Positions 1-15,022 of a DNA stretch of 64,000 bases are shown in pieces. Source of the stretch: an uncultured Clostridia bacterium (GTDB lineage: Bacteria; Bacillota; Clostridia; Oscillospirales; Acutalibacteraceae); the NCBI GenBank assembly GCA_946566955.1, contig CAMNXD010000005.1:12044-76043 (forward strand), in the 5' to 3' direction. Made by a program: the position numbers and the translations under genes. The first letter of the stretch is position 1. The number at the start of each line of letters is the position of its first letter. Under the pieces are notes generated by a model. The model searched no databases. It saw only the letters and a list, made by a program, of their open reading frames with translations, and was not told the DNA's origin.

Positions 1-6
1 TGCCAT
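1..6 (-). CDS. First two codons (ATG GCA) of a gene leaving the window. Its position after rpsM suggests rpsK (uS11).
   Basis: SD GGAGG (plus 16-20) followed by ATG at 6..4. The rpsM-rpsK order is established knowledge, but the product itself is not visible. Confidence 0.3.
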
Positions 7-24
7 TAAAATATTCCTCCTTTA

Positions 25-393
25 CTAACCTTTCTTATTCGCCATTGTTTTTTTAGGGCCTTTACGCGTCCTAGCATTAGTTTTTGATCTTTGACCTCTT
101 ACTGGTAATCCTTTTCTGTGACGAATTCCTCTATAACATCCTATTTCAATTAATCTTTTGATATCGAATGCTATTTCACTTCTAAGGTCACCTTCTACCT
201 TGTAGTGCTTATCAATGCAAGTTCTAATCTTAGAAATATCGTCTTCCGTAAGATCACGAACTCTAGTGTCAGGATTAATACCTGTTTTGCTGATAATTTC
301 TTTAGCACTTGTTCTGCCAATACCAAAAATATAAGTGAGTCCTATTTCAACTCTCTTGTCTCTAGGTAAATCCACGCCGGATATACGAGCCAT
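25..393 (-). CDS. rpsM: 30S ribosomal protein uS13
   Basis: 122-aa [29 protein letters not shown]...; canonical S13 sequence and position. Confidence 0.95.
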
Positions 394-422
394 TTTTTAA
401 CACCTCCATATTTTACTTTAGA

Positions 423-536
423 TTATCCTTGTCTTTGCTTATGCTTAGGGTTTTCGCATATAATCATAACTCTGCCACGCCTTTTTATGACTTTGCATTT
501 GTCGCATATCTTTTTTACAGATGGTCTGACTTTCAT
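423..536 (-). CDS. rpmJ: 50S ribosomal protein bL36 (zinc-binding form)
   Basis: Below the ORF-track cutoff. Hand translation gives [37 protein letters not shown], 37 aa, with CxxC...CxxxxH. Confidence 0.93.
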
Positions 537-539
537 CTT

Positions 540-887
540 TTATTTCACATCCTTCATCAGTGATATTTTCTGATGTCCATCACCTGACGGGTTCGAGGTA
601 TTTCCTATATTGGAAGTATTCGACGCCTCTAGTATGCTAGAATTACTCTTAGAAGTGGATTTATCGATATTTTTGCCTCTCCAAGTGATTCTTCCGCGAG
701 TCAGGTCATAGGGCGACATCTCAACCTTAACATAATCTCCTTGCAAAATTTTGATGTAATTCATTCTTAGTCTGCCAGATATATGAGCAAGAATAGTCAT
801 TCCATTAGAAAGTTCAACTTTAAACATTGCGTTTGGAAGCACTTCAACTACCTTACCCTCTACCTCCAGAGAATCTTCCTTAGACAT
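540..887 (-). CDS. infA: Translation initiation factor IF-1 with a 43-aa C-terminal extension
   Basis: Residues 1-72 ([26 protein letters not shown]...RGRITWRGK) are a complete IF-1. The ORF then continues through a Ser/Asn-rich tail to 3 nt before rpmJ. Confidence 0.85.
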
Positions 888-987
888 TTTTCATAGAGCA
901 TTAATTAATGTTAATTTAAAGACCCCATATAAATTATTAATTAATATGATGCTCCTTTCACCACCTTTTCCTACTAAAAGCTTCTCA

Positions 988-1239
988 TCATGCCTCTTTG
1001 CTATTTTGAAAAGAACGAAGTGCTAATCTTATCAACTTATTAGACTTTAAGTTTTCTTCTTTTAAAAGAGTCTTAGTAAATCTAAGATGCATTAAGTTCT
1101 TTTTCTTGGGTTTTTCAAGTAGTCTTTCCTTGCCATCACAAACAAAAACATATTTTCCGCAAGTACTTAAAACAACTTGAAAATAATTTTTATCCCTTCC
1201 TGCGCAAGACCTTACTACTAATCCTCGAGCCACTTCCAT
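988..1239 (-). CDS. KOW-domain RNA-binding protein (small protein typical of the map-infA interval in clostridia)
   Basis: 83 aa, MEVARGLVVRSCAGRDKNYFQVVL...; KOW-like GRDK motif and conserved position. Confidence 0.7.
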   Translation of the reverse strand: MEVARGLVVRSCAGRDKNYFQVVLSTCGKYVFVCDGKERLLEKPKKKNLMHLRFTKTLLKEENLKSNKLIRLALRSFQNSKEA

Positions 1240-1252
1240 AATTAAACCATCC

Positions 1253-2005
1253 TTAATTAGGGTCCGTAAGTACTAATGGACCTTCTGGCGTCACTGCAAT
1301 TGTATGCTCAAAATGTGCAGAGAGCTTTCCGTCTAAAGTAACTGTAGTCCAGCCATCATTAAGTACTTCAACCTCATGTCTTCCTTGGTTTACCATGGGT
1401 TCAATAGCTATGGTCATTCCTGGAACTAGTCTTATCCCATGACCAGAGCTCCCAAAATTTGGCACAGAAGGGTCTTCGTGTAATTGCGTGCCCACTCCAT
1501 GACCTACGAAATTTCGCACCACTGAGTAGCCACGTGCTTTGACATAACTCTCAACCGCATTGCCGATATCTCCAATCCTGTTACCGACTTTAGATAAATG
1601 TATCGCTTCTTGTAGACTTTGTTTCGTAGCTTCCATCAATCTTTTGGCATCCTCAGATACATCTCCACAAGCAAATGTATAAGCGTTATCACCGTGAAAT
1701 TTTTCTAAGTATGCCCCAACATCTACACTAACGATATCTCCGCTCTTAATAATACGGTTTTTGCTAGGTATGCCATGGATGACTTCATTGTTTATAGAAA
1801 TACAGCAACTTCCAGGAAATTCATCATATCCGAGGAATGACGGCTCCGCACCCTGAGACCTAATATATTTGCAAACAAGATTATCAATTTCTTTTGTGCT
1901 AACACCTGGCTCAATTGCTTCACCTGCCAGCTTTAAAGCTCTTGCCGAAATTCTACCAGCATTTCTCATAAGAGCGAGTTCCTTGGAATTTTTTAGTTTA
2001 ACCAT
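1253..2005 (-). CDS. map: Type I methionine aminopeptidase
   Basis: 250 aa; metal-ligand context DIVSVDVG, HGVG, IAIEPM, FEHT. Confidence 0.93.
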   Translation of the reverse strand: MVKLKNSKELALMRNAGRISARALKLAGEAIEPGVSTKEIDNLVCKYIRSQGAEPSFLGYDEFPGSCCISINNEVIHGIPSKNRIIKSGDIVSVDVGAYLEKFHGDNAYTFACGDVSEDAKRLMEATKQSLQEAIHLSKVGNRIGDIGNAVESYVKARGYSVVRNFVGHGVGTQLHEDPSVPNFGSSGHGIRLVPGMTIAIEPMVNQGRHEVEVLNDGWTTVTLDGKLSAHFEHTIAVTPEGPLVLTDPN

Positions 2006-2657
2006 TTTTATTTTCCTGCGCTTGAAGTATTTTTAAAACATTTTCAGTAATTTCAGGTAAAGGCTTTGCACCATCAACTACTATCCTCATATTGCGCTTA
2101 TCATAGTACTCTTTAAGTGCATGAGTTTGATCGTAATAAACCTTAAGCCTTTCTTTTACTGTTTCAATTTTGTCATCCATACGTTGAACAAGGGTGCCTG
2201 CACATACATCGCATTTTCCATCAACACGGGGTCTTTTATCAGTGTTGACGTTATACACACGAGCACATTTTTCGCAAACACGGCGCCCAGACATTCTCTT
2301 ATAAATAACTTCTTCATCAACTTCAATGTCGAGAACACAGTCTATAATTATATTAGAATTGTCCAGAGCCTCAGCTTGAGCAATAGTTCTTGGAAATCCA
2401 TCGAGTATAAAACCTTTTTTACAATCTTCTTGCTTTATCCTCTCTGTAACAATCCCTATTACTACCTCATCCGGAACCAGATGACCTTTATCGATAAAAG
2501 ATTTTGCTTTTAGCCCCATCTCAGTACCATTTTTCAATGCTGCTCTTATAATATCTCCTGTGGAAATAGTTGGAATATTAAGATGAGCAGATATAATTTC
2601 GGCCTGAGTACCTTTCCCAGCACCGGGTGCTCCCAAAAGTATAATGTTCATTTTCAA
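1998..2657 (-). CDS. adk: Adenylate kinase (zinc-lid type)
   Basis: P-loop GAPGAGKGTQ and lid CEKCARVYN...CDVCAG. The true start may be the second Met (2651). Confidence 0.93.
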   Translation of the reverse strand: MKMNIILLGAPGAGKGTQAEIISAHLNIPTISTGDIIRAALKNGTEMGLKAKSFIDKGHLVPDEVVIGIVTERIKQEDCKKGFILDGFPRTIAQAEALDNSNIIIDCVLDIEVDEEVIYKRMSGRRVCEKCARVYNVNTDKRPRVDGKCDVCAGTLVQRMDDKIETVKERLKVYYDQTHALKEYYDKRNMRIVVDGAKPLPEITENVLKILQAQENKNG

Positions 2658-3128
2658 AGCCCCTTCTTATATAATATTAATTAAATTGACTTAAATTAGT
2701 TGCTTTTTAAACACTTAAAAGTGACTACTTAAATCCTTATCGATATCAAAAATTTTTAGCTGCTTTTCAACGTCTTAATTTAGGCATCTTCCAGATTATA
2801 ACCAGGAAATTCTTATAAATCATCTTAGCAAGGTCAATTAGATATATCCTCACAAAATGATTATAAGCTAGATTAAAGAGTTCCCGTGTGCCTCACGGTG
2901 CTCTGAGGTTTTAATCCACCCCAAAAATTCGCAGCAGACTAAATTCAAAAATCACCTTCATTAAAACTATGAATAAAATTTCCAATTTAATCTTATATAA
3001 TTCATTTTAGGGCAATTATAACCTACTAATTTAAAATTATGCCATTTTACATTCAATTAGTCAAGTAAAAGAATGCTAAACTGCAAGAGAAATAAAGAAG
3101 AAACTAAGTTTTACTGTTTAAATCAATT

Positions 3129-3158
3129 AGAAGAAATCGCCGGTATATGCTCCGGCGA
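3129..3158 (-). terminator. Intrinsic terminator/attenuator-like hairpin just after secY
   Basis: Minus-strand UCGCCGG-AGCAUAUA-CCGGCGA followed by UUUCUUCU. The 7-bp GC stem starts 30 nt after the secY stop. Confidence 0.55.
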
Positions 3159-3187
3159 AATCAGGTCAATTAACATTTCACCATCCA

Positions 3188-4513
3188 TTAGCCTAAGAAG
3201 CCTTTGTAGTGACGCATCATAAGCTGAGATTCTAATTGCTTAATTGTTTCAAGTGCAACTCCTACCATAATTATTATGGAAGTACCACCTAAAGAAAGAT
3301 TTTGCATTCCAGTAAAAGTAGTAAAACCAATTGGTAAAAGTGATATTACTGCTAAAAACAATGCTCCTAAGAATGTTACCTTAGAAAGAACTTTTGAAAA
3401 GTAATCCGCCGTGGGCTTTCCTGGACGAATTCCTGGAATTGCACCATTACTTTGACGCAAATTGTTAGCCATTTCCACTGGATTATAAGTAATTTCAACG
3501 TAAAAATATGCAAAAACAAATATCAAGAAGAAATAGCATACGGTATATACAGGACCATTTATTGCAAAAGCATCTAGAACCGTTTTCCAAAAGCCAGTAG
3601 GCTTAGCAAAGAAGTTCACAAAATTAGGAATGGCTAATATTTGAGTTGCAAATATAACTGGCATTACTCCTGTTATACCTACTTTTAAAGGTATATGAGT
3701 ATTTTGTCCGGCATAAGTTTTTCTTCCTACTGTGCGCTGAGCATACTGAATTGGTATTCTTCTCTCGGCGTCATTCATAGATACTATCATCCACATTAAG
3801 AATAAGAACAATAGGATAAATAACGGTACATACGCATAAAACAACGAGAATTGCTCTGGCATCTGCATTGCAAGTGAAAAATAACCAAATAATTTTCCAA
3901 GAAGACTTGGCATGCGAGAAACGATACCTGCAAACATCAAAATTGATACTCCATTACCAACACCTTTGGCGTTTATTTGTTCCCCGAGCCACATTATAAG
4001 TGCAGCACCAGCGGTAAAGCAAAGTACAATTATAACAGCAACAAATGCACCTGCTGCTCCTTGTGTATACCTCACAATCGGAATGCCTTGAAAGCTTCCA
4101 CTTCTTAAGTACATATAAAATGTGGTTCCTTGTAAAAGAGCAAGGATAATTGTAATGTACCGCGTAATAGCAGTAAGCTTTTTTCTACCTTCTTCCCCTT
4201 CTTTTTGTAAAGATTCCAGATAAGGAATAGCAACTGTCATAAGCTGTATAACAATAGACGCATTAATATATGGTCCAACAGACATAGCAAATATAGTTGC
4301 TTGAGCAAATGCTCCTCCCGATAAAGTGTCAAGGTAAGTAAGGATTGCTCCGCTTTCTCCTAAACTTCCCATCATTCCTGCTAAAGCCTCAACGTTCAAA
4401 AATGGAACGGGTATTACAGATCCTACACGAAAAACTATTATTATCAATATCGTAAACAATAACTTGTTTCTTAGTTCTTTAACCTTCCATGCATTTATTA
4501 ACGTCCTAATCAA
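3188..4513 (-). CDS. secY: Preprotein translocase subunit SecY
   Basis: 441-aa polytopic membrane protein with canonical SecY sequence and position after rplO. Confidence 0.95.
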   Translation of the reverse strand: MIRTLINAWKVKELRNKLLFTILIIIVFRVGSVIPVPFLNVEALAGMMGSLGESGAILTYLDTLSGGAFAQATIFAMSVGPYINASIVIQLMTVAIPYLESLQKEGEEGRKKLTAITRYITIILALLQGTTFYMYLRSGSFQGIPIVRYTQGAAGAFVAVIIVLCFTAGAALIMWLGEQINAKGVGNGVSILMFAGIVSRMPSLLGKLFGYFSLAMQMPEQFSLFYAYVPLFILLFLFLMWMIVSMNDAERRIPIQYAQRTVGRKTYAGQNTHIPLKVGITGVMPVIFATQILAIPNFVNFFAKPTGFWKTVLDAFAINGPVYTVCYFFLIFVFAYFYVEITYNPVEMANNLRQSNGAIPGIRPGKPTADYFSKVLSKVTFLGALFLAVISLLPIGFTTFTGMQNLSLGGTSIIIMVGVALETIKQLESQLMMRHYKGFLG

Positions 4514-4954
4514 TTAGACCACCTCCGCCTTCCCTCCTGCAGATTCGATTTTTTCAATCGCAGATTTCGAAAACATCTGTGCTTTGACCGTTAGATTTTT
4601 AGTAAGATTACCATTACCTAAAATTTTGATTTTATCAAAATGACGCTTTATTAAACCCATTTCGATTAACTCATTAGCTCCTATAACTGAGCCATCTCCA
4701 AATCTCTCTAGATCTCCCACGTTGACGGAAAGTACTTTCTTAGCAAATATGTTTGTAAAGCCTCTCTTAGGGATACGTCTTTGCAGTGGCATTTGACCTC
4801 CCTCAAAACCTGGGCGAACTCCTCCGCCAGAGCGTGCATTTTGGCCCTTGTGACCTTTTCCGGCAGTTTTACCCCAACCTGATCCGTGGCCTCTTCCAAC
4901 ACGTTTTGGTGCTTTCCTTGATCCCGCAGGACACATTAAACTTTCAAGTCCCAT
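4514..4954 (-). CDS. rplO: 50S ribosomal protein uL15
   Basis: [29 protein letters not shown]. Start trimmed to the ATG at 4954, which follows SD GGAGGTG by 6 nt (the track start is an upstream GTG). Confidence 0.93.
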
Positions 4955-5084
4955 TATTTTCACCTCCTATCCAAATTCAACAGAACCCATTACTATACAA
5001 ATACCACAACTTCTTTGCAGCAAGTACCATATAATTTTATCATATCGATAAAGGATATCAAGCTATTTTTTTAATATAAAGCAA

Positions 5085-5585
5085 CTATTTAAGAATTTCG
5101 CTCACGTTCTTGCCCCTTAATTCTGCAACTTGACTTGCAGTTCTCAAACATTTAAGACCTGAGATAGTTGCTCTAACGACATTACATGGATTATTGGATC
5201 TGAGAGCTTTAGTACGAATATCCTTTATACCTGCAGATTCAACTACGGCACGTACTGGGCCCCCTGCAATAACTCCTGTTCCTGGCGCAGCTGGTTTCAT
5301 TAATACTCTTCCTGCTCCATATGCTCCAAGAATTTCATGAGGAATAGTATCGCCTTTTAGCGGAACTTTTATTAAATTTTTCTTTGCGTCCTCAATACCT
5401 TTTCTTATGGCGTCGGGAACTTCTCCAGATTTTCCTATTCCGAACCCTACAGTTCCCTTTCCGTCACCAACAACCATTAAAGCTGCAAATTTAAAAATTC
5501 TTCCACCTTTTACAGTTTTTGAAACCCTATTTATAGCAACCAATCTTTCTTTTAAATCCAGTGTTGAACTATCTATCCTAGCCAA
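5085..5585 (-). CDS. rpsE: 30S ribosomal protein uS5
   Basis: 166 aa, [32 protein letters not shown]. Confidence 0.95.
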
Positions 5586-5602
5586 AAAATTCCCTCCTTT
5601 TA

Positions 5603-5962
5603 TTAAAAGTTAAGTCCCGCCTCGCGAGCACTTTCCGCTAATGCTTTAACACGTCCGTGAAATAAATATCCTCCACGGTCAAAAACCACAGTTGAAATTC
5701 CTTTTTCTAGCGCACGTTTAGCAATCATTTTGCCTACTTCTGAAGCAGCCTCTTTATTTCCGCCATAGGAAGAAAATTCCTCCTCATAGGTAGAAGCACT
5801 TACCAGAGTTTTAGCAGTAACGTCATCAATTATTTGAACGCTTATATTACTTCTGGAACGAAAAACGTTTAAACGCGGACGGCTGGCAGTACCAGAAATT
5901 TTGCCTCTAACTCTTCTATGACGCCTCAAACGGGCCAGATTCTTATCAGCCTTGTTTACCAT
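5603..5962 (-). CDS. rplR: 50S ribosomal protein uL18
   Basis: 119 aa, [26 protein letters not shown]...[16 protein letters not shown]. Confidence 0.95.
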
Positions 5963-5980
5963 GCTTATTTACCCTCCTTG

Positions 5981-6517
5981 TTATTTTTTACCGGTCTTGC
6001 CTTCCTTACGGCGAATTACTTCGTTAACATATTTAATTCCTTTACCTTTGTAAGGCTCCGGTGGACGTTTTTCTCTTATTTCAGCAGCACATTGACCTAC
6101 TTTTTGCTTATCAATACCGATTACTGAAATCTTGTTTCCCTGTGCTTCAAGTTTAATTCCGTCAATTTCCGGAACAATTACTTGATGAGAGTACCCTAAG
6201 TTAAGTACCAGATTACTCCCTTGCTTTTGAACACGGTATCCAACCCCATTGACTTCTAATTCTTTCTTAAAGCCATGTGTAACTCCTTCGATCATATTGT
6301 TTATCAAAGAGCGGGTCAAGCCATGCAAAGCACGGTTTTCTTTTTGATCGTTAGGTCTTGAAACTGTTATTACTCCGTCTGTTATTTCAACCTTCATTCT
6401 AGGATGAATAGCTTGAGTAAGTGTTCCTTTGGAACCTGTAATTTTTATTGTGCCATCACTTAAACTTGCTTCCACGCCCGATGGTATAGTTATAGGTTTT
6501 TTACCAATTCGTGACAT
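5981..6517 (-). CDS. rplF: 50S ribosomal protein uL6
   Basis: 178 aa, MSRIGKKPITIPSGV...PEPYKGKGIKY. Confidence 0.95.
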   Translation of the reverse strand: MSRIGKKPITIPSGVEASLSDGTIKITGSKGTLTQAIHPRMKVEITDGVITVSRPNDQKENRALHGLTRSLINNMIEGVTHGFKKELEVNGVGYRVQKQGSNLVLNLGYSHQVIVPEIDGIKLEAQGNKISVIGIDKQKVGQCAAEIREKRPPEPYKGKGIKYVNEVIRRKEGKTGKK

Positions 6518-6533
6518 TTTTATCCTCCTTTCT

Positions 6534-6932
6534 TTACCATATAAATGCTAGAACTTCTCCTCCAAGATTTTCTTTACGTGCCCTGCGGTCAGTCATAACT
6601 CCCTTAGATGTAGAAATTAGTGCAATGCCTAATCCTTTCATCACTCTGGGCATTTGTTCCACATTGCTATAAATTCTAAGTCCTGGTTTTGAAACTCTTT
6701 TAAGGCCTGTGATAACTGGCTTTTTTTCTTCAGTATACTTTAAAAATATTTTTATACTATTTTGACGGTTATCATCAATTACCATAAATTTTCTGATGTA
6801 TCCTTCATCCAGCAAAACTTGTACTATAGCTTTTTTAATATTAGATGAAGGCACTTCAACTATTTCATGTCTCGCAGCACATGCATTGCGAATTCTTGTT
6901 AACAGATCTGCGATAGCGTCCGTTATTTGCAT
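6534..6932 (-). CDS. rpsH: 30S ribosomal protein uS8
   Basis: 132 aa, [13 protein letters not shown]...GGEVLAFIW. Confidence 0.95.
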
Positions 6933-6957
6933 AAGTAATTTACCTCCTTTGCCAATT

Positions 6958-7143
6958 TTACCAACTTGCTTTTCTGACTCCTGGAATTTCTCCTCTGTGC
7001 GCTAGTACCCTAAAACATATACGGCATATTCCGAATTTGCGAAGGTATCCATGCGGCCTACCACAAATCCTGCAGCGAGAATATTCACGTGTTGAAAATT
7101 TTTGAGCTCTTTTTTGTTTTATCTTTAACGACGTTTTAGCCAC
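6958..7143 (-). CDS. rpsZ: 30S ribosomal protein uS14, short type Z (zinc form)
   Basis: 61 aa with [22 protein letters not shown]. Confidence 0.93.
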
Positions 7144-7154
7144 AATATCCCTCC

Positions 7155-7694
7155 TTATTTTGCAAATGGTGCCCCCATTAATTTTAATAGCTCTCTAGCT
7201 TCATCATCTGTATTAGCAGTGGTAGTAATTGATACGTCCATTCCACGAATTTTATCGATTTTATCGTATTCGATTTCAGGGAATATAAGTTGTTCTTTAA
7301 TTCCCATGTTATAGTTACCTTTGCCGTCGAAAGACTTAGGATTTATACCTCTAAAGTCTCTAACACGTGGGAGTGCAAGATTAAAGAGTCTATCTAAAAA
7401 CTCATACATTTTGTCGCCGCGAAGTGTAACCTTAGCTCCAATTTTCATTCCTTCGCGTACCTTAAAGTTAGCAACCGATTTCTTTGCACAGCACACAACA
7501 GGTCTTTGACCCGTAATAGTTGCAAGGTCCTCCAGTACGGAATTTATGGCTTTAGAATTATCTTTCGCTTCTCCCACACCAACATTTATGACGATCTTTT
7601 CCAGCTTAGGCACTTGCATGACATTTTTATAATCAAATTTGCTTTTAAGCTGAGATATCACTTGTTGTTTGTAAAAATCTCTTAATCTGGCCAT
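7155..7694 (-). CDS. rplE: 50S ribosomal protein uL5
   Basis: 179 aa, canonical L5 sequence and position. Confidence 0.95.
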
Positions 7695-7705
7695 TCTTCT
7701 CCTCC

Positions 7706-8062
7706 TTACAGCACTTCACCGCATTTTTTGCAGCTACGCTTTTTCTTACCATCTTCCAGAATCTTATGAGCTATACGTGTAGGCTTGCCGCAGTGAGAAC
7801 AGACTAACTGTAATTTACAAGCGTAAAGGGCTCCTTCTGTTTTAAATATACCGCCCTCTTGACCTGCCCTACGTGGCTTAACGTGCTTAGAAACAATATT
7901 GATTCCTTCAACGATTACCTTACCCTCTTTAGGACTTACAGCTAATACTTTCCCCTCTTTGCCTTTATCTTTTCCACTCAAAACTTTGACTTTATCTCCA
8001 GTTTTTAAGTGAATTTTACACCGGTTAAGACTTACTCCATTTCTTTTATTACTTTTAAACAT
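7706..8062 (-). CDS. rplX: 50S ribosomal protein uL24 with an N-terminal extension and C-terminal CxxC...CxxC
   Basis: [24 protein letters not shown] core. SD GGGAGGTG lies 8 nt before the ATG at 8062. C-terminus is [32 protein letters not shown]. Confidence 0.92.
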
Positions 8063-8080
8063 TAATCAAACACCTCCCTC

Positions 8081-8449
8081 TTAGAGAACCTCTGGGGCTA
8101 AGCTCGATATTTTAAGATATCCCTTTTCGCGTAATTCACGGGATACAGGTCCAAAAATACGTGTGCCCTTTGGAGTCTTATCATCTTTGATAATAACTGC
8201 TGAATTCTCGTCAAAATTGATATAAGAACCATCTGCTCTTCTGACTTTAGATCTTGTGCGTACTACTACTGCTTTAACGACATCACCTTTTTTTACAACG
8301 CCGCCGGGTGATGCTTTTTTAACAGAAGCAACTATTACATCACCAATTCTTGCATATCTTCTGCGTGTACCACCTAAAACTCTAAAGCACATTACTTCTT
8401 TTGCGCCTGTGTTATCGGCAACCTTTAAACGAGTCTGAGGTTGTATCAT
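8081..8449 (-). CDS. rplN: 50S ribosomal protein uL14
   Basis: 122 aa, [18 protein letters not shown]. Confidence 0.96.
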
Positions 8450-8492
8450 AGTAAACTATTCCCCCTAACTAACCTTAATTTTAATTAATTTC

Positions 8493-8750
8493 TTATTTTG
8501 CTTTTTCAATTATATTAACAAGTCTCCAATTTTTATCTTTAGATAAAGGTCTTGTTTCCATAATTTTCACGTAGTCTCCAATTTTGCATTCATTGGATTC
8601 ATCATGAGCTTTAAAACGCTTCATACGTTTAATAATTTTCTTGTAAAGCGGGTGTTTAACGCTATCTTCAACAGCTACAACGATAGTTTTATCCATCTTG
8701 TCGCTCACAACTTTACCCGTCTTAACCTTTCTCATATTTCTTTCGCTCAA
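8493..8750 (-). CDS. rpsQ: 30S ribosomal protein uS17
   Basis: 85 aa, [19 protein letters not shown]...[11 protein letters not shown]. Confidence 0.94.
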
Positions 8751-8790
8751 GGTATTTCCCTCCTCCTTTTTTACGCTTAGTCTCTATAAC

Positions 8791-9027
8791 TTACTGCTTT
8801 TTATCAGAGTGCAGAGTTTCAGCGGATTCTTCCGCTATTTTTAATTCCTTTTCTCTAATAGCAGTCTGTGCTCTTGCAATGTCTTTTTTTACCATCTTTA
8901 TGCGCATTGGATTCTCCAACTGGTTTATAGCAAGCTGAAATCTAAGGTTAAAAAGTTCGGATTTAAGGCTTTTTATCTTCGCAGTCAATTCTTGGATCGT
9001 CAACTTCTCGAATTCTGACATCTTCAT
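8791..9027 (-). CDS. rpmC: 50S ribosomal protein uL29
   Basis: 78 aa, [13 protein letters not shown] motif. Confidence 0.92.
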
Positions 9028-9452
9028 TAAACCTCACCATCCGTTTCTTGCTTTCTTACGAACTTACATTTTATCGGTAACTTATTAGCTGCTAAACGCA
9101 TTGCTTCTTTGGCAGTTTCTTCAGATACTTCACCGATTTCAAACATAACTCTTCCCGGCTTTACTACTGAAACCCAAAATTCTGGCGAACCTTTTCCTTT
9201 ACCCATACGTGTTTCAGCAGGTTTTTTAGTTATAGGCTTATCGGGGAATATTTTTATCCAGACTTTACCTACCCTTTTACAAAACCTTGTCATTGCAATA
9301 CGTGCTGCTTCAATTTGATTAGAAGTTATCCAGGCAGGTTCTAAAGCTTGTAGGCCAAAATCTCCATGAGAAACTCTGCTTCCTCTTATTGCCCGACCTT
9401 TCATTCTACCTCTGTGTACTTTTCTATACTTAGTTCTTTTTGGTAATAACAT
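9027..9452 (-). CDS. rplP: 50S ribosomal protein uL16
   Basis: 141 aa, [19 protein letters not shown]. Confidence 0.95.
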
Positions 9453-10122
9453 TAGCTCCGCCTCCTTTTCTGGGCTCTTTGCTTGATGAATTAACCAAAA
9501 TTTCGCCTTTGTAAATCCAAACTTTTACTCCTATAATTCCGCCATAGGTAGTAGCTGCTTCTGCAAAACCATAGTCGATGTCTGCTCTAATAGTCTGTAG
9601 AGGGATGGTTCCTTCATGATAGTGCTCGGTTCTGGCTATTTCTGCTCCTCCAAGACGTCCGGAAACTTGGGTTTTAATTCCCTTAGCTCCTGCCTTCATA
9701 GCGCGTCCCATAGCTTGTTTTAATGCGCGTCTAAATGAAACTCTTTTTTCAAGCTGAGTAGCTATAGTTTCAGCAACTAGTTGAGCGTTCATATCTGAAC
9801 TTTTTACTTCAACAATATTTATAATTACTGGCTTTTTTACTATTTCTTGGCAGTAAGCTCTGAGTTTATCAATTTCTGATCCACCTTTACCAATCACGAC
9901 TCCAGGCTTTGCGCAGTGAATATGCAGACGAATTTTATGGTTGTCTCTCTCAATTTCTATTTTGGGGACTCCTGCTGGTTTTAATCTCTTAATCAACAAT
10001 TTACGAAGATTATAATCTTCAACTAAAACATCTGCAAAGTCTTTCTTTTTTACAAACCATCTAGAATCCCAGTTTTTTATTACTCCAACACGAAATCCGC
10101 ATGGATTAACTTTCTGTCCCAT
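9430..10122 (-). CDS. rpsC: 30S ribosomal protein uS3
   Basis: [14 protein letters not shown]. Start trimmed to the ATG at 10122, 6 nt after GGAGG (the track start is an upstream TTG). Confidence 0.94.
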
Positions 10123-10140
10123 AGTCAACCTCCTTTTCCA

Positions 10141-10476
10141 TTAATTTTTTTCCTTTAAGACTATAGTAACATGTGAACTTCTTTTCTCAATCCTATAAGC
10201 ACGGCCTTTAGACATAGGTCTTATCCTTTTGAGTATCGGCCCAGGACATACAAAACATTCTGATATATAAAGACGCGTTACGTCCATTTGATTATTGTTT
10301 ACCGCATTAGCTATGGCAGACTTTAAAAGTTTCTCAAGGTACTCACATGCTGATTTAGGCACATGCTTGAGAACTGCCATTGCGTATTCCACAGGTTTAT
10401 TTCTTATAAGGTCTAGCACAATTGAAACTTTCCTTGGTGAAATACGGGCAAACCTCAAATGAGCTTTTGCTTCCAT
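10141..10476 (-). CDS. rplV: 50S ribosomal protein uL22
   Basis: MEAKAHLRFARISPRKV. Start trimmed to the second ATG, 9 nt after AAAGGAG. Confidence 0.94.
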   Translation of the reverse strand: MEAKAHLRFARISPRKVSIVLDLIRNKPVEYAMAVLKHVPKSACEYLEKLLKSAIANAVNNNQMDVTRLYISECFVCPGPILKRIRPMSKGRAYRIEKRSSHVTIVLKEKN

Positions 10477-10498
10477 ATATTCCATCTCCTTTCACCCG

Positions 10499-10777
10499 TT
10501 ATTTTTTACCCGTTGTTTTTGAACCGGCATGACCTTTAAAAGTCCTAGTTGGAGCAAATTCACCAAGCTTATGACCCACCATATCTTCTGTAACATAAAC
10601 AGGAATATGCTTGCGTCCATCATGAACAGCGAACGTATGGCCTACAAACTCCGGGAAAATGGTTGATGATCTGCTCCATGTTTTTAACACCTTTTTTTCG
10701 CCGGTTTTATTAAGTTCATTAACTCTTTTTAAAAGTACCGGTTGCACAAAGGGGGCCTTTTTTAAACTCCTACTCAC
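10499..10777 (-). CDS. rpsS: 30S ribosomal protein uS19
   Basis: 92 aa, [11 protein letters not shown]...[16 protein letters not shown]. Confidence 0.95.
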
Positions 10778-10798
10778 TTTATCAAACTCCTTTCCCTA

Positions 10799-11632
10799 TT
10801 ATTTGCTGTTTCTACGTTTAACAATATATTTATCAGAAGGATTTTTCTTAGAGCGCGTTTTGTATCCTAGTGCTGGTTTACCCCATGGTGTACATGGTCC
10901 AGGACGTCCAACAGGAGATTTTCCTTCGCCGCCTCCGTGCGGGTGGTCACATGGATTCATAACTGATCCGCGCACGGTTGGTCTCCAACCCATATTGCGT
11001 TTACGTCCAGCTTTACCTATTTTAACGTTTTCATGCTCTATATTTCCAACTTGGCCAACAGTTGCCATACACTCTACAGGTACATTTCTAAGTTCACCTG
11101 AAGGTAATCTCAGAAGTGCCATTTTTCCTTCTTTAGCCATAAGTTGTGCCATGATTCCAGCTGCTCTTGCAAGTTGTGCACCTTTGCCAGGATATAGCTC
11201 TATGTTATGAATAAATGTTCCCACAGGTATATTTATTAATGGTAAAGCGTTTCCAACTATGATATCTGCGTCTGCACCGGATTTTATTTCTTGGCCAATT
11301 TTTAATTCCTGAGGCGCTACTATATATCTTTTTTCGCCGTCAGCATATTTAATAAGTGCAATATGTGAAGATCTATTAGGATCGTACTCAAGCGTTAGAA
11401 CCTCGCCTTGAACTCCAAGTTTATTCCTCTTAAAGTCGATTAGACGATATTTTCTTCTGCTGCCGCCTCCTCTGTGGCGTACAGTTATTCTACCATAGTT
11501 GTTTCGTCCGGCAAATTTATTTAAAGGACGAAGTAAGCTTTTTTCTGGTTTTACCTTCGAAAGTTCTGAGTAGTCGATTACCGACATATTTCTTCTTGAA
11601 GGTGAAGTGGGTTTATAATTTTTTATTGCCAA
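10799..11632 (-). CDS. rplB: 50S ribosomal protein uL2
   Basis: 277 aa, ...[16 protein letters not shown]. Confidence 0.96.
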
Positions 11633-11681
11633 TCTATTTCACTCTCCTTAAAAACTTAGCTTTGCGGAAGCTGACTCTTCC

Positions 11682-12053
11682 TTAATCTGCTTGTTTCTTA
11701 ATTTTTTTAATTTCAAATAAACTAGCTCCTAGACTCAATAGGCATAAAATTTCTATTAGAATAACAGCTACAATATATCTTGAAAGATACATAAGAAAAA
11801 ACGCTAAGCTTAAAGTTAATAGCATTATTAAAAAACTTATCCCAGTATTTTCTGCCGCAGTACTATCCTTTGAAAAAACTGAAAACTTTAATTTCTTAAA
11901 ATAGATAAAGCTAAAAACAGAAAATAAAAGTTCAAATAATCCTAAAATAATTAAAGCTACCCAGACGTGATAAAGCGCTCCCCATAATACTTCACAAGAT
12001 GTAAAAATTCCAAAAATAGCAAAAAGCATGCCTATTTCTTTCTTAATAACCAA
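11682..12053 (-). CDS. Hypothetical small polytopic membrane protein (about 4 TM) inserted between rplW and rplB
   Basis: An open frame of 123 codons fills 372 of the 426 nt between rplW and rplB in an AT-rich (stop-rich) genome. It has four hydrophobic stretches and K-rich loops. The start is TTG at 12053 or ATG at 12029, and the SD is weak. Confidence 0.6.
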   Translation of the reverse strand: MVIKKEIGMLFAIFGIFTSCEVLWGALYHVWVALIILGLFELLFSVFSFIYFKKLKFSVFSKDSTAAENTGISFLIMLLTLSLAFFLMYLSRYIVAVILIEILCLLSLGASLFEIKKIKKQAD

Positions 12054-12058
12054 ATTAA

Positions 12059-12349
12059 TTAAACTATTCCTTCAAAGAATTCTATAGCTTTACTTTCAGG
12101 TTTTAAAGTCACGTAAGCCTTTTTCCATGATGAAGTATAGCCTTGAAATTTACCTTTACGACGCATTTTACCACGCATATTCAAAGTGTTTACTTTTAAA
12201 ACTTTAACTTTAAATATTTCTTCAATTGCTTTGGCAATTTCAATTTTACCGGCGCTTTTAGATACTTTAAAGGTGTATTTTTTATTCGGCATACCACCCA
12301 TTGTTTTTTCAGTTATTATGGGTTTTATTATAACGTCATGTGCCAACAT
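12059..12349 (-). CDS. rplW: 50S ribosomal protein uL23
   Basis: 96 aa, DVIIKPIITEKT...KKAYVTL. Confidence 0.94.
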   Translation of the reverse strand: MLAHDVIIKPIITEKTMGGMPNKKYTFKVSKSAGKIEIAKAIEEIFKVKVLKVNTLNMRGKMRRKGKFQGYTSSWKKAYVTLKPESKAIEFFEGIV

Positions 12350-12972
12350 TATGCATACACCTCCTCAATTTTGCTTACTGCTTCTTTAAGAATTACTAAC
12401 TTTCTAGCGTTCAATATGTCGTAAGTGTTTAATCCACCAACTTGTGAAGTCTTAACCCCTGGAATGTTACGAGCGGACTTAATAATCTTTTCATCGATGC
12501 TTGGCAACACTATTAATGGTTTTTTAGACGCTTCAATTGCTCCGAGCATATTAACTATAATTTTTGTTTTAAATTCATTTAAAGATATGGAATCTAAAAC
12601 CACAATATTGTTTTCTATAAATTTACTTGAAAGCGCGGACTTAAGAGCTAAACGCTTAACCTTTTTATTAAGTACATAGCTGTAATCACGTGGTTTAGGT
12701 GCAAACACTATTCCACCATGTCTCCACTGAGGAGCTCTTATAGAACCTTGACGCGCATGGCCTGTTCCTTTTTGTCTCCAAGGTTTCTTTCCTCCACCCG
12801 AAACTTCCGAACGTGTAAGTGCACTTTGAGTACCTTGTCTTTTATTGGCAAGATGATTTACAACTACATCGTGCATCACAGCTTTGTTTGGATGAATTCC
12901 AAAAATGGCATCAGGTAAATCAATAGCGCCCACTTCTTTACCCGTCATATCAAGCACTGCTACCTTAGGCAT
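12349..12972 (-). CDS. rplD: 50S ribosomal protein uL4
   Basis: 207 aa, ...[25 protein letters not shown]. Confidence 0.95.
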
Positions 12973-12989
12973 TAAAATTCCTCCCTTCC

Positions 12990-13622
12990 TTATGCTTTAA
13001 CACTGTTGCAAACAAGCACTACGCTACCTTTTGGACCAGGTACTGCACCTTTTATTGCAATCAGATTGTTTTCAATATCAACTTTAACAATTGTTAAATT
13101 TTGAACCGTAACTCTTTCAGCTCCAAGATGTCCAGCCATTTTCTTGCCCTTGAATACTCTCGAAGGATCTGAGCAAGCTCCAATGGATCCACCCTTTCTT
13201 ACTACTGGACCTGAACCGTGAGTTTCTTTAAGTCTTCTAAAGTTCCAACGCTTAATTACGCCGGCCCATCCTTTACCTTTGCTCGTACCTACAACATCTA
13301 TTTTGTCCCCGGATTGAAAAATATCGACCTTAACGATGTCACCTACGTTATAGGAGCTGGTATCCTCGAGACGAAATTCCCTAAGTACTCTTTTTGGAGC
13401 CACATTAGCTTTATCGAAATGGCCTTTTAGAGGTTTACTTACTTGTTTAGGTCTCAAATCACCAAAACCCATTTGTATAGCGTCATATCCGTCAATGTCA
13501 ACTGTTTTTTTCTGCGAAATTACGCAAGGTCCTGCTTGGACTACTGTCACAGGAACGACTTTCCCTTGTTCATCAAATATTTGAGTCATTCCTATTTTTT
13601 TACCTATAATGGCTTTTTTCAT
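12990..13622 (-). CDS. rplC: 50S ribosomal protein uL3
   Basis: [16 protein letters not shown]. Start trimmed to the ATG at 13622 behind GGAGGAG. Confidence 0.94.
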
Positions 13623-13693
13623 TTTTCTCCTCCTATTTAGGTTATTGGTTAGCAAAATCTTGCTAACTTGACCCCAACTGCATGTTGGTTAAG

Positions 13694-14005
13694 TTATAGT
13701 TTTATTTCTATCTCAACACCTGCAGGGAGCTCGAGATTCATCAAAGAGTCGATAGTCTTATTTGAAGGTTTTAGAATATCTATAAGTCTCTTATGAGTTT
13801 TCATCTCAAATTGCTCACGGCTATCCTTATTTATGTGAACAGAGCGAAGGATAGTTATAACTTGCTTTTCAGTGGGAAGCGGCACGGGACCAGATATTTT
13901 GCATCCAGTTCTAGTAGCCGTTTGGACCAACTTTTGTGCTGCTTGGTCAACAAGTCGAGAATCGTATCCTTTGATTCTAACTCTCATTTTTTCTTTGCCT
14001 GCCAT
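13694..14005 (-). CDS. rpsJ: 30S ribosomal protein uS10
   Basis: 103 aa, [16 protein letters not shown]...; SD AAGGAGG. Confidence 0.95.
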
Positions 14006-14250
14006 TGAATCGCCTCCTTACTTAAAATATTGGTGGGCTTGCCTTTAACCATCAACCTACCCGGGTGTTTCAAAATCCGCATAAATAAAAACGGATCAAC
14101 AACTACGTTCAACCCGAATAACACAAAAGCACTGAATTTTTAATTAAAAATCCAAAATCTTTCGCCCGGTTTTAAATCGGACATACTCCACGGAAATAAC
14201 CGACTTTAAGTCGCAACCTCCCGCTTCAACGCATACCGCAGCAGTCACAC
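14006..14250 (-). promoter_or_regulatory. Long (about 245 nt) GC-enriched 5' leader of the S10 operon with several hairpins
   Basis: Lies between the predicted promoter and the rpsJ ATG. Hairpins: CGACU-UAA-AGUCG nested in AACCGA...UCGGUU, AUCCG-N12-CGGAU, and a long-range ACCGGG/CCCGGU pair. Confidence 0.45.
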
Positions 14251-14256
14251 TCGGTT

Positions 14257-14285
14257 ATAATACCATATGACTTCAAAAAAATCAA
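14257..14285 (-). promoter_or_regulatory. Sigma-A-type promoter of the S10 operon
   Basis: Minus strand TTGATT, 17 nt spacer, TATTAT. Confidence 0.55.
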
Positions 14286-14465
14286 GAACTTTTTTAAGGT
14301 AGTAAAAATATTCTGGTGGCTTTACCTTTTAAGTCAATGTCTCTTTTTCCCCGATTTCAAGAAAATATTATTTTTTTAGCTTAAGTTTAATAGCAAAGCA
14401 CATCTAAAACGTTATTTTTTCAAGATATCCATTCTAGAAGTAAACTTTGCTATATTTTAAATTTA

Positions 14466-14837
14466 TTATTCGTAGTTGCAGTATAAACTTAATGGATGAG
14501 GATTTGAACTACATTTTTTTAAACACGCAGCCGAACGCACTAAATAATTATTTGGCCCTACTCCTCGTTTCCACTCAAATTCTTCAATCAGAATTTTAAA
14601 TCCATGAATCCCTGTTCGATAAAATGAACATTTATTTTCTTTAGCACATTCAATTGCTTTAAAAATGCGTTCAAATGGACCTATAACTAACTCCCTTATT
14701 TCATGAATAACATACCAGGCTTCTTTGTTAGATATACTTTTTATATAACCATAATAAATATATCCTCCGGCAATTTTTTCAAGTTCTTCTGAGCTTAAAG
14801 CTTCCAACTTAGAAGAAACATCTTCAAAATGTTTTAT
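14466..14837 (-). CDS. Double-glycine-leader cargo protein (98-aa Cys-containing core). The start is uncertain: ATA at 14837 behind a good SD, or TTG at 14807.
   Basis: LEALSSEELEKIAGG|YIYY matches the LSxxELxxIxGG leader motif. GGAGGG lies 7 nt upstream of an in-frame ATA, and there is no in-frame ATG. Confidence 0.6.
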   Translation of the reverse strand: MKHFEDVSSKLEALSSEELEKIAGGYIYYGYIKSISNKEAWYVIHEIRELVIGPFERIFKAIECAKENKCSFYRTGIHGFKILIEEFEWKRGVGPNNYLVRSAACLKKCSSNPHPLSLYCNYE

Positions 14838-15022
14838 AGTCTTTCCCTCCTTATAAATATGGTTATAAGTACTTATAATGTACGTATGCTAAAATGCTTA
14901 GATTGTATTTTCAAGAATTTTTTGTAAATTCAGAGGTTTTAATATTTTGAATTAGCTATATCGCAAAAAATACTTACTATTTTCTAGAAATTACTTTATA
15001 TCTATCTAAAGTTTTAAATTGA

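What the first reader, a model, noticed from the sequence alone, without database searches (positions are those of the whole stretch)
14466..14837. Second double-glycine-leader cargo, a 98-aa Cys-containing protein with an ATA where the start codon should be
The ORF contains ...KLEALSSEELEKIAGG|YIYYGY..., a textbook LSxxELxxIxGG leader. The 98-aa core has 5 Cys and does not resemble any bacteriocin I recognise.

The frame has no ATG. A strong SD (GGAGGG) lies 7 nt upstream of an in-frame ATA (14835-14837). Starting there would give a 25-aa leader (x-KHFEDVSSKLEALSSEELEKIAGG), the normal length for PCAT substrates. The C. thermocellum PCAT1 substrate, for example, has a leader of about 24 aa on a 90-aa protein (from memory). 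The only other candidate start is TTG at 14807, which has no SD.

Together with the USP gene, this argues for a PCAT secretion route that carries protein-sized cargo. The gene also sits directly upstream of the S10 operon promoter, where tuf is normally found.
Basis: partly seen in the sequence, partly recalled or inferred. Interest (0 to 1): 0.6.

Follow-up and report, generated by a model that had tools for sequence, protein, structure and literature searches.

The report
Orphan double-glycine-leader gene with ATA start
A mouse-gut Clostridia bacterium carries a young, species-restricted gene for a small protein with a textbook export-and-cleavage leader. The gene appears to be translated from the rare start codon ATA; its exporter and function are unknown.

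Summary
On the minus strand, GGAGGG (14845-14850) lies 7 nt before an in-frame ATA (14835-14837). This opens a 123-codon frame: a 25-aa leader ending LSSEELEKIAGG, then a 98-aa basic core with 5 Cys.

- **ATA is not a read error.** It is present in independent mouse-gut assemblies representing three sequence lineages.
- **ATA is the best-supported start.** Its ribosome-binding pairing is -11.6 kcal/mol against -1.4 for the TTG at 14807. One lineage has TTA instead of TTG but keeps ATA and AAGGAG.
- **The frame looks translated.** Window versus relative gives 18 synonymous changes of 38, where 10.5 are expected (P 0.005).
- **The gene is a recent insertion.** About 720 nt sit between an LCP/LytR gene and the S10 promoter, absent from the next relatives.
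- **It has its own control signals.** There is a conserved promoter, a perfect 16-bp palindrome and no immunity-like partner.
- **The core is an orphan.** It has no family, no homologue among billions of proteins, and no confident fold.

No peptidase-ABC exporter lies in the 64 kb, and the rest of the genome could not be reached. Export is therefore inferred from the leader alone. This is a new member of a known kind, with an unusual start codon.

The parts
14290..15022 (-). Lineage-specific insertion of about 720 nt between the LCP/LytR stop and the S10 promoter. It carries the gene with its own control signals. The boundaries are approximate.
   Evidence: Relatives L004 and L007 (LytR 72% and 68% identical) have only about 280 nt from the LytR stop to the S10 start, and lack this segment.
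14886..14914 (-). Putative promoter: -35 TTGAAA (14914-14909), 17-nt spacer, -10 TAGCAT (14891-14886).
   Evidence: Consensus scan. Both hexamers are identical in the relative L003, while the 17-nt spacer has 6 changes. Function is inferred.
14863..14878 (.). Perfect 16-bp palindrome TTATAAGTACTTATAA just downstream of the -10. Candidate operator.
   Evidence: It is the only exact match in the window. It is identical in L003 although both flanks changed. The operator role is inferred.
14845..14852 (-). Shine-Dalgarno sequence AAGGAGGG.
   Evidence: Pairing with the 16S tail is -11.6 kcal/mol. The median for 44 gene starts in the window is -9.9. In L003 it is AAGGAGTG, -7.7 kcal/mol.
14835..14837 (-). 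ATA, the proposed start codon.
   Evidence: It is in frame, 7 nt after GGAGGG. It is unchanged in all assemblies and in three lineages.
14763..14837 (-). 25-codon double-glycine leader (M/I)KHFEDVSSKLEALSSEELEKIAGG.
   Evidence: Consensus positions are those given in PMC6959990. Only weak leader-level Pfam hits were found.
14805..14807 (-). TTG, the alternative start used by gene callers (113-aa product P0001). It would give a 15-aa leader.
   Evidence: Pairing upstream is -1.4 kcal/mol. It is TTA in L003 and kept in the X9-type lineage.
14469..14762 (-). 98-aa core (cargo): basic, soluble, Tyr-rich, with 5 Cys.
   Evidence: No family or homologue was found.
14466..14468 (-). Stop codon TAA.
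14390..14453 (-). Long hairpin after the stop codon. Possibly a terminator or stabiliser, but it has no U tract.
   Evidence: Fold z-score -2.1. In L003, three one-sided changes all keep pairing; there is no double compensatory change. This evidence is weak.
22348..22383 (+). The second double-glycine motif in the window (LSVNELKKIAGG), inside the USP/UCH-domain protein encoded at 22165-23808. Context only.
   Evidence: It shares L-12, S-11, E-8, L-7, K-5, I-4, A-3 and GG with this leader.

Best explanation
This is a real, recently acquired, fast-evolving orphan gene. It has its own sigma-70-type promoter and a candidate palindromic operator.

Translation most likely starts at AUA (14837-14835), positioned by a strong Shine-Dalgarno sequence. 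That start would give low or regulated output. The product is a 123-aa precursor.

The 25-aa N-terminus is a double-glycine leader. [quoted passage not shown] The hydrophobic -12, -7 and -4 residues would make the contact. The leader would be cut after Gly25, and the 98-aa, 11.5-kDa basic core (N-terminus YIYYGYIK) exported.

**Shown**
- The sequence features themselves.
- Presence of ATA in three lineages.
- A frame-specific excess of synonymous changes.
- The insertion relative to the next relatives.

**Inferred**
- Use of AUA as the start.
- Cleavage and export.
- Existence of the exporter.

The role of the cargo is unknown. My best guess is an extracellular competition or signalling protein.
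For: - **Leader.** It meets all consensus positions (PMC6959990). The strict motif has 0 chance expectation in shuffles.
- **Ribosome-binding site.** Pairing is -11.6 kcal/mol at ATA and -1.4 at TTG, against a gene median of -9.9.
  - Only 28 of the 91 GGAGG sites in the window precede a canonical start opening an ORF of at least 60 aa.
  - The site at 14850 is intergenic, on the coding strand and in frame. The only start-like codon 3-12 nt downstream of it is ATA.
- **Lineage comparison.**
  - ATA is present in three lineages.
  - L003 keeps AAGGAG and ATA, but has TTA for TTG and no other canonical start before the GG site.
- **Coding signal, window versus L003 over 87 codons.**
  - Nei-Gojobori counts give 20 synonymous and 18 non-synonymous changes, dN/dS 0.17.
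  - A permutation test controlled for mutation spectrum expects 10.5 +/- 2.7 synonymous and observes 18 (P 0.005). The other two frames give 8-9.
  - Differences by codon position are 10/8/20.
  - Leader codons 11-25 show 4 synonymous and 2 conservative changes (A>V, I>V).
- **Control signals.** The promoter hexamers and the palindrome are conserved in L003 while their surroundings changed.
- **ATA can initiate.** It is a working start in a Firmicute, with ATG > ATA > ATT in Listeria (PMC13068326). It gives 0.02-3% of AUG in E. coli (10.1101/063800).
- **Shared leader.** A second protein in the window carries a near-identical leader end, including I at -4, the position that sets exporter specificity (PMC6959990).
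Against: - No C39-ABC exporter lies in the 64-kb window or the short stretches seen beyond it. The rest of the genome could not be examined.
- There is no RNA or protein evidence. No RNA run holds the sequence.
- Overall identity of the gene between lineages (85.4%) is no higher than that of its non-coding flanks (86.5% and 84.7%). With the spectrum-controlled null, constraint is only moderate, about 0.4.
- On the short branches between the window and the X9-type lineage, changes are about 6 non-synonymous to 2 synonymous.
- The L003 copy carries a 23-nt frameshifting deletion, so that copy may be dying. Its loss of TTG could be part of the same decay.
- TTG is kept in two of three lineages, and a 15-aa leader is a legitimate length (PMC12219008).
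- Cys80 and Cys95 vary between strains.
- There is no immunity-like ORF next to the gene.
- There is no confident structure.
Confidence: 0.5

Rival explanations
1. The gene and export route are as above, but translation starts at TTG 14807. This gives a 113-aa precursor with a 15-aa leader, MEALSSEELEKIAGG. The upstream SD-ATA pair would be a relic or a standby site.
For: - TTG is a canonical start, and every public gene call uses it (P0001).
- It is kept in the window-type and X9-type lineages.
- 15-aa double-glycine signals are normal, as in MccV MRTLTLNELDSVSGG and the bacteroidetocins (PMC12219008).
- AUA initiates at only a few percent of AUG in E. coli (10.1101/063800).
Against: - Pairing upstream of TTG is -1.4 kcal/mol, where 75% of the window's gene starts have -6 or better.
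- The strong SD is 38 nt away, too far to serve TTG.
- L003 has TTA there, yet keeps SD+ATA and shows a synonymous-biased pattern along its long branch.
- In PCAT1, leader residues back to about -17 contact the peptidase domain (PMC6959990). A 15-aa leader would lack them.
Confidence: 0.2
2. It is a decaying or silent pseudogene. An ancestral ATG became ATA, the gene is no longer usefully expressed, and it is drifting.
For: - There is no canonical start behind the SD.
- L003 has a 23-nt frameshift.
- The gene diverges as fast as its non-coding flanks.
- Non-synonymous changes dominate on the short branches.
- Cys positions vary between strains.
- No homologues exist outside this species group.
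Against: - ATA is shared by all three lineages, so it predates their split. Yet the divergence since then shows a frame-specific excess of synonymous changes (P 0.005; other frames at the null).
- The frame is intact in the window-type and X9-type lineages, with no gaps.
- The SD, both promoter hexamers, the palindrome and the full leader consensus are all retained.
Confidence: 0.15
3. The protein is made, but the double-glycine-like N-terminus is not an export signal. The protein stays in the cell, or another protease processes it.
For: - No exporter was seen in the available sequence.
- No immunity or accessory gene is adjacent.
- Leader-level family hits fall below their curated cut-offs.
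Against: - All six consensus positions match, at the right distance from the N-terminus (PMC6959990).
- The strict motif has 0 chance expectation.
- The leader is kept, with only conservative changes, in L003.
Confidence: 0.1
4. ATA is a sequencing or assembly error for ATG.
For: None was found.
Against: ATA is identical in at least six independent assemblies or runs from different studies, and in three sequence lineages.
Confidence: 0.01

Closest known systems
CtA, the 90-residue substrate of PCAT1 of Clostridium (Acetivibrio) thermocellum (PMC6959990)
   Same: Both come from Clostridia. Both have a leader of about 24-25 aa with L-12, E-8, L-7 and GG, followed by a protein-sized cargo of unknown function. 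A 98-aa cargo scales to roughly 13,000 cubic angstroms, within the 15,000 estimated for the PCAT1 cavity (my scaling from the paper's figure for the 66-aa cargo).
   Different: No sequence similarity was detected to any PDB chain. No PCAT lies anywhere in the 64-kb window here. The -4 residue is I here and M in CtA. This gene uses ATA instead of a canonical start.
Class II microcins and bacteroidetocins (PMC12219008)
   Same: [quoted passage not shown] Some contain Cys.
   Different: They come from Gram-negative bacteria, have 15-18-aa signals, and are usually linked to immunity and exporter genes. Here there is no immunity-like ORF and no linked exporter.
Gram-positive class II bacteriocins and dispersed double-glycine peptides exported by shared PCATs, as in pneumococcal ComAB/BlpAB/RtgAB substrates (PMC7018657, PMC7595303)
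   Same: The leader consensus is the same. These systems also show that double-glycine peptide genes can be scattered in a genome and served by a shared PCAT.
   Different: This mature part is 98 aa (typical ones are 20-70 aa from my own knowledge, not checked here). Pfam Bacteriocin_IIc and L_biotic_typeA hits cover the leader only and fall below the cut-offs.
Bacterial genes with rare near-cognate start codons: Listeria rsbW ATA variants (PMC13068326), and E. coli infC and pcnB with AUU (from my own knowledge)
   Same: A strong ribosome-binding site faces an AUN codon, giving reduced translation.
   Different: Those cases are regulatory housekeeping genes. Use of ATA here is inferred from sequence only.

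Membership tests
Double-glycine-leader substrates of PCAT/AMS transporters | N-terminal leader of about 15-30 aa ending in GG, GA or GS | tested here: met
   The leader is 25 aa from ATA, or 15 aa from TTG, and ends AGG|Y.
Double-glycine-leader substrates of PCAT/AMS transporters | Consensus L(-12), E(-8), L(-7) and a hydrophobic residue at -4 (PMC6959990) | tested here: met
   In LSSEELEKIAGG the residues are L-12, E-8, L-7 and I-4. They are kept in L003, where I-4 becomes V.
Double-glycine-leader substrates of PCAT/AMS transporters | Short helix over positions -10 to -4 | tested here: inconclusive
   AlphaFold places a helix at residues 16-22, but pLDDT is below 55.
Double-glycine-leader substrates of PCAT/AMS transporters | A C39-peptidase ABC transporter in the same genome | not testable with these tools
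   None lies in the 64-kb window or in the short stretches seen beyond it. The species is absent from the reference genome collection.
Double-glycine-leader substrates of PCAT/AMS transporters | Cleavage after GG, with export of the core | not testable with these tools
   This needs biochemistry or secretome proteomics.
Class II bacteriocins (Pfam Bacteriocin_IIc PF10439, L_biotic_typeA PF04604) | Profile match above the gathering score | tested here: not met
   PF04604 scored 16.5 bits against a cut-off of 21.7. PF10439 scored 12.3 against 27.1. Both hits cover the leader only.
Class II bacteriocins and microcins | Adjacent immunity gene and/or linked exporter | tested here: not met
   There is no same-strand small membrane ORF in the insertion. 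The neighbours are LCP/LytR and the S10 operon.
Modified-peptide (RiPP) precursors: sactipeptide, ranthipeptide or lanthipeptide | A maturase gene next to the precursor | tested here: not met
   The only radical-SAM/SPASM gene (61545-62915) sits 47 kb away, beside its own SCIFF precursor.
CTB-family and Nif11-type leader precursors (NCBIfam) | Profile match above the cut-off | tested here: not met
   cyan_ocin_like scored 11.5 bits against a cut-off of 32.

The most novel reading that the evidence does not exclude
A mouse-gut spore-forming Clostridium uses a PCAT as a general protein secretion route. Its cargo would include protein-sized orphans such as this 98-aa protein and a USP/UCH-type (deubiquitinase-like) enzyme that shares the leader end LSxxELxKIAGG. 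A conserved AUA start would deliberately throttle production of this cargo. If so, double-glycine leaders would mark a hidden secretome that standard gene callers, limited to ATG/GTG/TTG, truncate or miss.
Probability: 0.12. Interest if true: 0.65.

Novelty: new member of a known kind. Interest (0 to 1): 0.35.

Why it matters
- **Annotation.** If confirmed, this is a natural, evolutionarily retained AUA start in a Firmicute. All public gene calls mis-annotate it by starting at an internal TTG and cutting off 10 residues of the leader. Where the TTG is absent (L003), only a 37-aa fragment starting at an internal ATG was called. Short secreted-protein genes of this type may be under-counted.
- **Cargo size.** It would add a protein-sized, sequence-orphan cargo to the few known for PCAT transporters in Clostridia.
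- **Gene birth or acquisition.** It shows a very young gene landing next to one of the most conserved operons of the cell.
- **Limits.** None of this changes how such systems are understood to work, and the function of the cargo is unknown.

Tried and rejected
**Searches for relatives**
- Pfam, NCBIfam, PHROGs and PADLOC on the precursor or core gave only sub-threshold, leader-level hits or nothing.
- The word-indexed search of 5.8 billion proteins returned only the gene itself. A leader-focused query found no candidate.
- Full HMMER against 1.84 billion representatives gave two hits.
  - P0003 is a 37-aa fragment and the only true relative.
  - P0002 is a 1142-aa tandem-repeat protein. I reject it as a repeat-inflated chance match.
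- PDB sequence search gave only an insignificant hit to a designed TPR protein, E 0.12.
- Back-translated and DNA-pattern scans of genome, metagenome and viral contig collections found nothing. My first alignment began with M, which wasted one pattern on ATG.
- A genome-collection scan with the LytR neighbour found only an unrelated actinobacterial hit.
- Phage and plasmid collections gave no match.

**Expression and structure**
- No RNA run holds the sequence.
- Two single-sequence AlphaFold runs gave pLDDT 39 and 40. I therefore ran no fold search, because it would be meaningless.

**Ideas considered and dropped**
- A mobile element carrying the gene. The only support is a weak 24-nt, 79% inverted repeat (14354-14377 and 14968-14991) in AT-rich DNA.
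- A link to the radical-SAM gene at 61545. That gene is the ordinary SCIFF maturase.
- Read error at ATA (see the rival explanations).

Full report
**1. What is in the sequence**

All features lie on the minus strand.
- AAGGAGGG occupies 14852-14845, followed by a 7-nt spacer and ATA at 14837-14835.
- The open frame reads IKHFEDVSSKLEALSSEELEKIAGG|YIYYGYIKSISNKEAWYVIHEIRELVIGPFERIFKAIECAKENKCSFYRTGIHGFKILIEEFEWKRGVGPNNYLVRSAACLKKCSSNPHPLSLYCNYE and ends at TAA 14468-14466.
- The previous in-frame stop is TAG 14891-14889. No ATG, GTG, TTG or CTG lies between it and TTG 14807-14805.
- The core is 98 aa, 11.5 kDa, pI 8.8, with no hydrophobic segment, 9 Tyr and 5 Cys.

The strict leader pattern [LIVM]S..E[LIVM]..[IVL].GG occurs exactly twice in the six-frame translation of the 64 kb. 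One is here. The other is in the USP/UCH-domain protein at 22348-22383 (LSVNELKKIAGG). It occurred in none of 100 shuffles.

**2. ATA is real**

The 500 nt around the gene are identical in a Logan assembly (SRR19792986) and an ENA assembly (ERZ12290372). Sixteen metagenome runs hold at least part of the stretch, most of them labelled mouse gut. The host is therefore an uncultured mouse-gut bacterium. SpoIVA and SipL in the window mark it as a spore-forming Clostridia. The nearest named LCP homologues are MAGs labelled Clostridia or Acutalibacteraceae, at about 60% identity.

Contigs of X2/X3 and X5 cover ATA and the ribosome-binding site without a difference. Two further lineages also keep ATA:
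- the X9-type lineage (X9, X10, X13-X16), 95-99% identical;
- the JGI contig L003, about 85% identical.

A read error is excluded.

**3. Which start codon**

*Ribosome binding.* Pairing of the 20 nt upstream with the 16S tail is -11.6 kcal/mol for ATA and -1.4 for TTG 14807. For 44 gene starts in the window the median is -9.9, and 75% are -6 or better. Only 28 of the 91 GGAGG sites in the window sit 3-12 nt before a canonical start of an ORF of at least 60 aa. The site at 14850 is intergenic, in frame with the ORF, and the only start-like codon 3-12 nt downstream of it is ATA.

*Comparison between lineages.* L003 keeps AAGGAG (-7.7 kcal/mol) and ATA, but has TTA in place of TTG. Its first canonical in-frame start is an ATG beyond the GG site, which is why its public gene call is a 37-aa fragment. 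The X9-type lineage keeps both ATA and TTG.

*Caveats.*
- L003 also carries a 23-nt deletion that shifts the frame after ...KEFG. The X9-type contigs across that site have no gap. The L003 copy may therefore be a recent pseudogene, and its TTG loss part of that decay.
- A 15-aa leader from TTG is a legitimate length. Microcin signals are 15-18 aa; MccV has MRTLTLNELDSVSGG (PMC12219008).

*Precedent.* ATA works as a start in Listeria at reduced efficiency (PMC13068326), and gives 0.02-3% of AUG in E. coli (10.1101/063800).

I put ATA at about 70-75% and TTG at about 20-25%, given that the gene is translated.

**4. Is it translated?**

I compared the window with L003 over the 87 codons before the deletion.
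- Nei-Gojobori counts are 20 synonymous and 18 non-synonymous changes: dS 0.55, dN 0.09, ratio 0.17. The LytR control gives 0.05.
- That null ignores the strong transition bias (31 of 38 changes). I therefore re-placed the observed substitution types at random on matching bases. This expects 10.5 +/- 2.7 synonymous changes and observes 18, P 0.005. The two other frames give 8 and 9.
- Differences by codon position are 10/8/20.
- In leader codons 11-25 there are 4 synonymous changes and 2 conservative replacements (A>V, I>V). The motif is intact.

ATA is shared by all lineages, so this constraint operated with ATA already in place.

Several points argue against strong constraint.
- The gene's identity (85.4%) is no higher than that of its flanks (86.5% and 84.7%).
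- With the better null the effective ratio is about 0.4.
- The short branches show roughly 6 non-synonymous to 2 synonymous changes.
- Cys80 and Cys95 vary between strains.

The gene is young and fast-evolving.

**5. Origin and neighbourhood**

The nearest relatives by the LCP/LytR neighbour are L004 (72% identity) and L007 (68%). They share the surrounding gene order HAMP protein, LysM protein, LytR, S10 operon. Between the LytR stop and the S10 start they have only about 280 nt. In L004 the S10 promoter begins about 10 nt after the LytR stop. The window and L003 have about 720 extra nt there. The remark about tuf is therefore irrelevant for this clade.

The insertion carries several signals.
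- **Promoter.** TTGAAA, 17 nt, TAGCAT. Both hexamers are unchanged in L003 although the spacer has 6 changes.
- **Palindrome.** A perfect 16-bp TTATAAGTACTTATAA lies at 14863-14878. It is unique in the window and unchanged in L003 despite changed flanks. It sits where a repressor would sit.
- **Hairpin.** A long hairpin follows the stop codon at 14390-14453. In L003 three one-sided changes keep its pairing.

There is no immunity-like ORF. The gene's GC content (31%) matches its neighbours, although the insertion as a whole is lower at 27.5%. No convincing terminal repeats were found. The S10-Clostridia leader RNA (RF03136) lies at 14162-14237, and the S10 promoter is intact downstream.

**6. 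What the cargo is**

The cargo has no recognisable relatives.
- No Pfam, NCBIfam, PHROG or PADLOC family matches; only sub-threshold leader hits appear.
- The only relative among the proteins searched is the L003 fragment.
- Nothing was found in PDB, phages, plasmids or viral contigs.
- Two AlphaFold runs gave pLDDT of about 40, with helices predicted at core residues 12-42, 54-62 and 70-84.

**7. The exporter**

I scanned every ORF of at least 100 aa outside the ribosomal-protein and adjacent housekeeping stretch (1-14,005) with Pfam, plus the extra ORF at 11682-12053. None has a C39 peptidase domain. The only ABC genes are a ZnuABC-type uptake system. The 1-4 kb seen beyond the window ends hold none either.

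The species is not in the reference genome collection, so the decisive test could not be run. Scattered double-glycine peptide genes served by a shared PCAT are known from pneumococcus (PMC7018657).

The two leaders in this window share L-12, S-11, E-8, L-7, K-5, I-4, A-3 and GG. Position -4 is the one that sets exporter specificity (PMC6959990). This fits one shared exporter.

**8. Verdict**

This is a lineage-specific orphan gene for a double-glycine-leader precursor. It was very probably translated through most of its recent history, and most likely starts at ATA. Cleavage and export by a PCAT are inferred from the leader only. It is a new member of a known kind, with an unusual start codon. 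Interest is modest until the exporter and the product are shown.

Noticed in passing
window 22165-23808 (+): A 547-aa protein has a C-terminal UCH/USP (ubiquitin C-terminal hydrolase) domain, Pfam E 1.7e-16. Its 73-aa N-terminus ends LSVNELKKIAGG and weakly resembles a Nif11-type leader (TIGR03798, E 0.036, below the cut-off, with the match ending exactly at GG). A hydrophobic stretch follows. Such a eukaryote-like protease behind an export leader in a gut commensal deserves separate study.
   Followed up: partly
window 11682-12053 (-): An extra 123-aa ORF with a TTG start lies inside the S10 operon, between the L23 and L2 genes. It is visibly hydrophobic, probably with four membrane helices, and has no Pfam family. 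It is called as a gene in L001 and L002. Relative L004 has only a 44-aa ORF at that position and L007 has none, so this is a second lineage-specific insertion in the same operon.
   Followed up: partly
window 14000-14290 (-): The S10 promoter, the S10-Clostridia leader RNA (RF03136, 14162-14237, 49.9 bits) and the start of rpsJ are 100% identical between the window and L003. The DNA just upstream is only about 85% identical. Either constraint is very strong here or recent recombination has a boundary near 14290.
   Followed up: no
window 14863-14878: A perfect 16-bp palindrome TTATAAGTACTTATAA lies between the -10 and the ribosome-binding site. It is unique in the window and conserved in L003. 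It is a candidate operator for an unknown regulator.
   Followed up: partly
window 61339-62915 (+), approximate start: A SCIFF peptide gene (46 aa, PF13165, seen in L012 and L013) sits directly upstream of its radical-SAM/SPASM maturase. This is the ordinary Clostridia pair and is unrelated to the finding.
   Followed up: yes
L003 841-880 (equivalent to window about 14552-14574): A 23-nt deletion in the JGI 3300006139 contig shifts the frame and truncates the gene after 88 codons. It is absent from the X9-type lineage. I could not tell whether it is real or an assembly error in a short contig.
   Followed up: partly
window 14479: Runs X2 and X3 carry C>T on the plus strand, which changes the last Cys (Cys120 of the precursor) to Tyr. 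L003 has Tyr119Cys and Cys105Arg. The C-terminal Cys residues are not fixed, which argues against an essential disulfide pattern there.
   Followed up: partly
window 25027-28184 (-): Two class-I Glu/Gln-type tRNA synthetase genes lie side by side. One is GlnRS-like, with tRNA-synt_1c_C domains; the other is GluRS-like, with Anticodon_2.
   Followed up: no
P0002 (not in the window): A 1142-aa tandem-repeat protein scored E 5e-11 against the query through about 20 copies of GPYGRIILFTHCTRENKW. This is an example of repeat-inflated false homology.
   Followed up: yes
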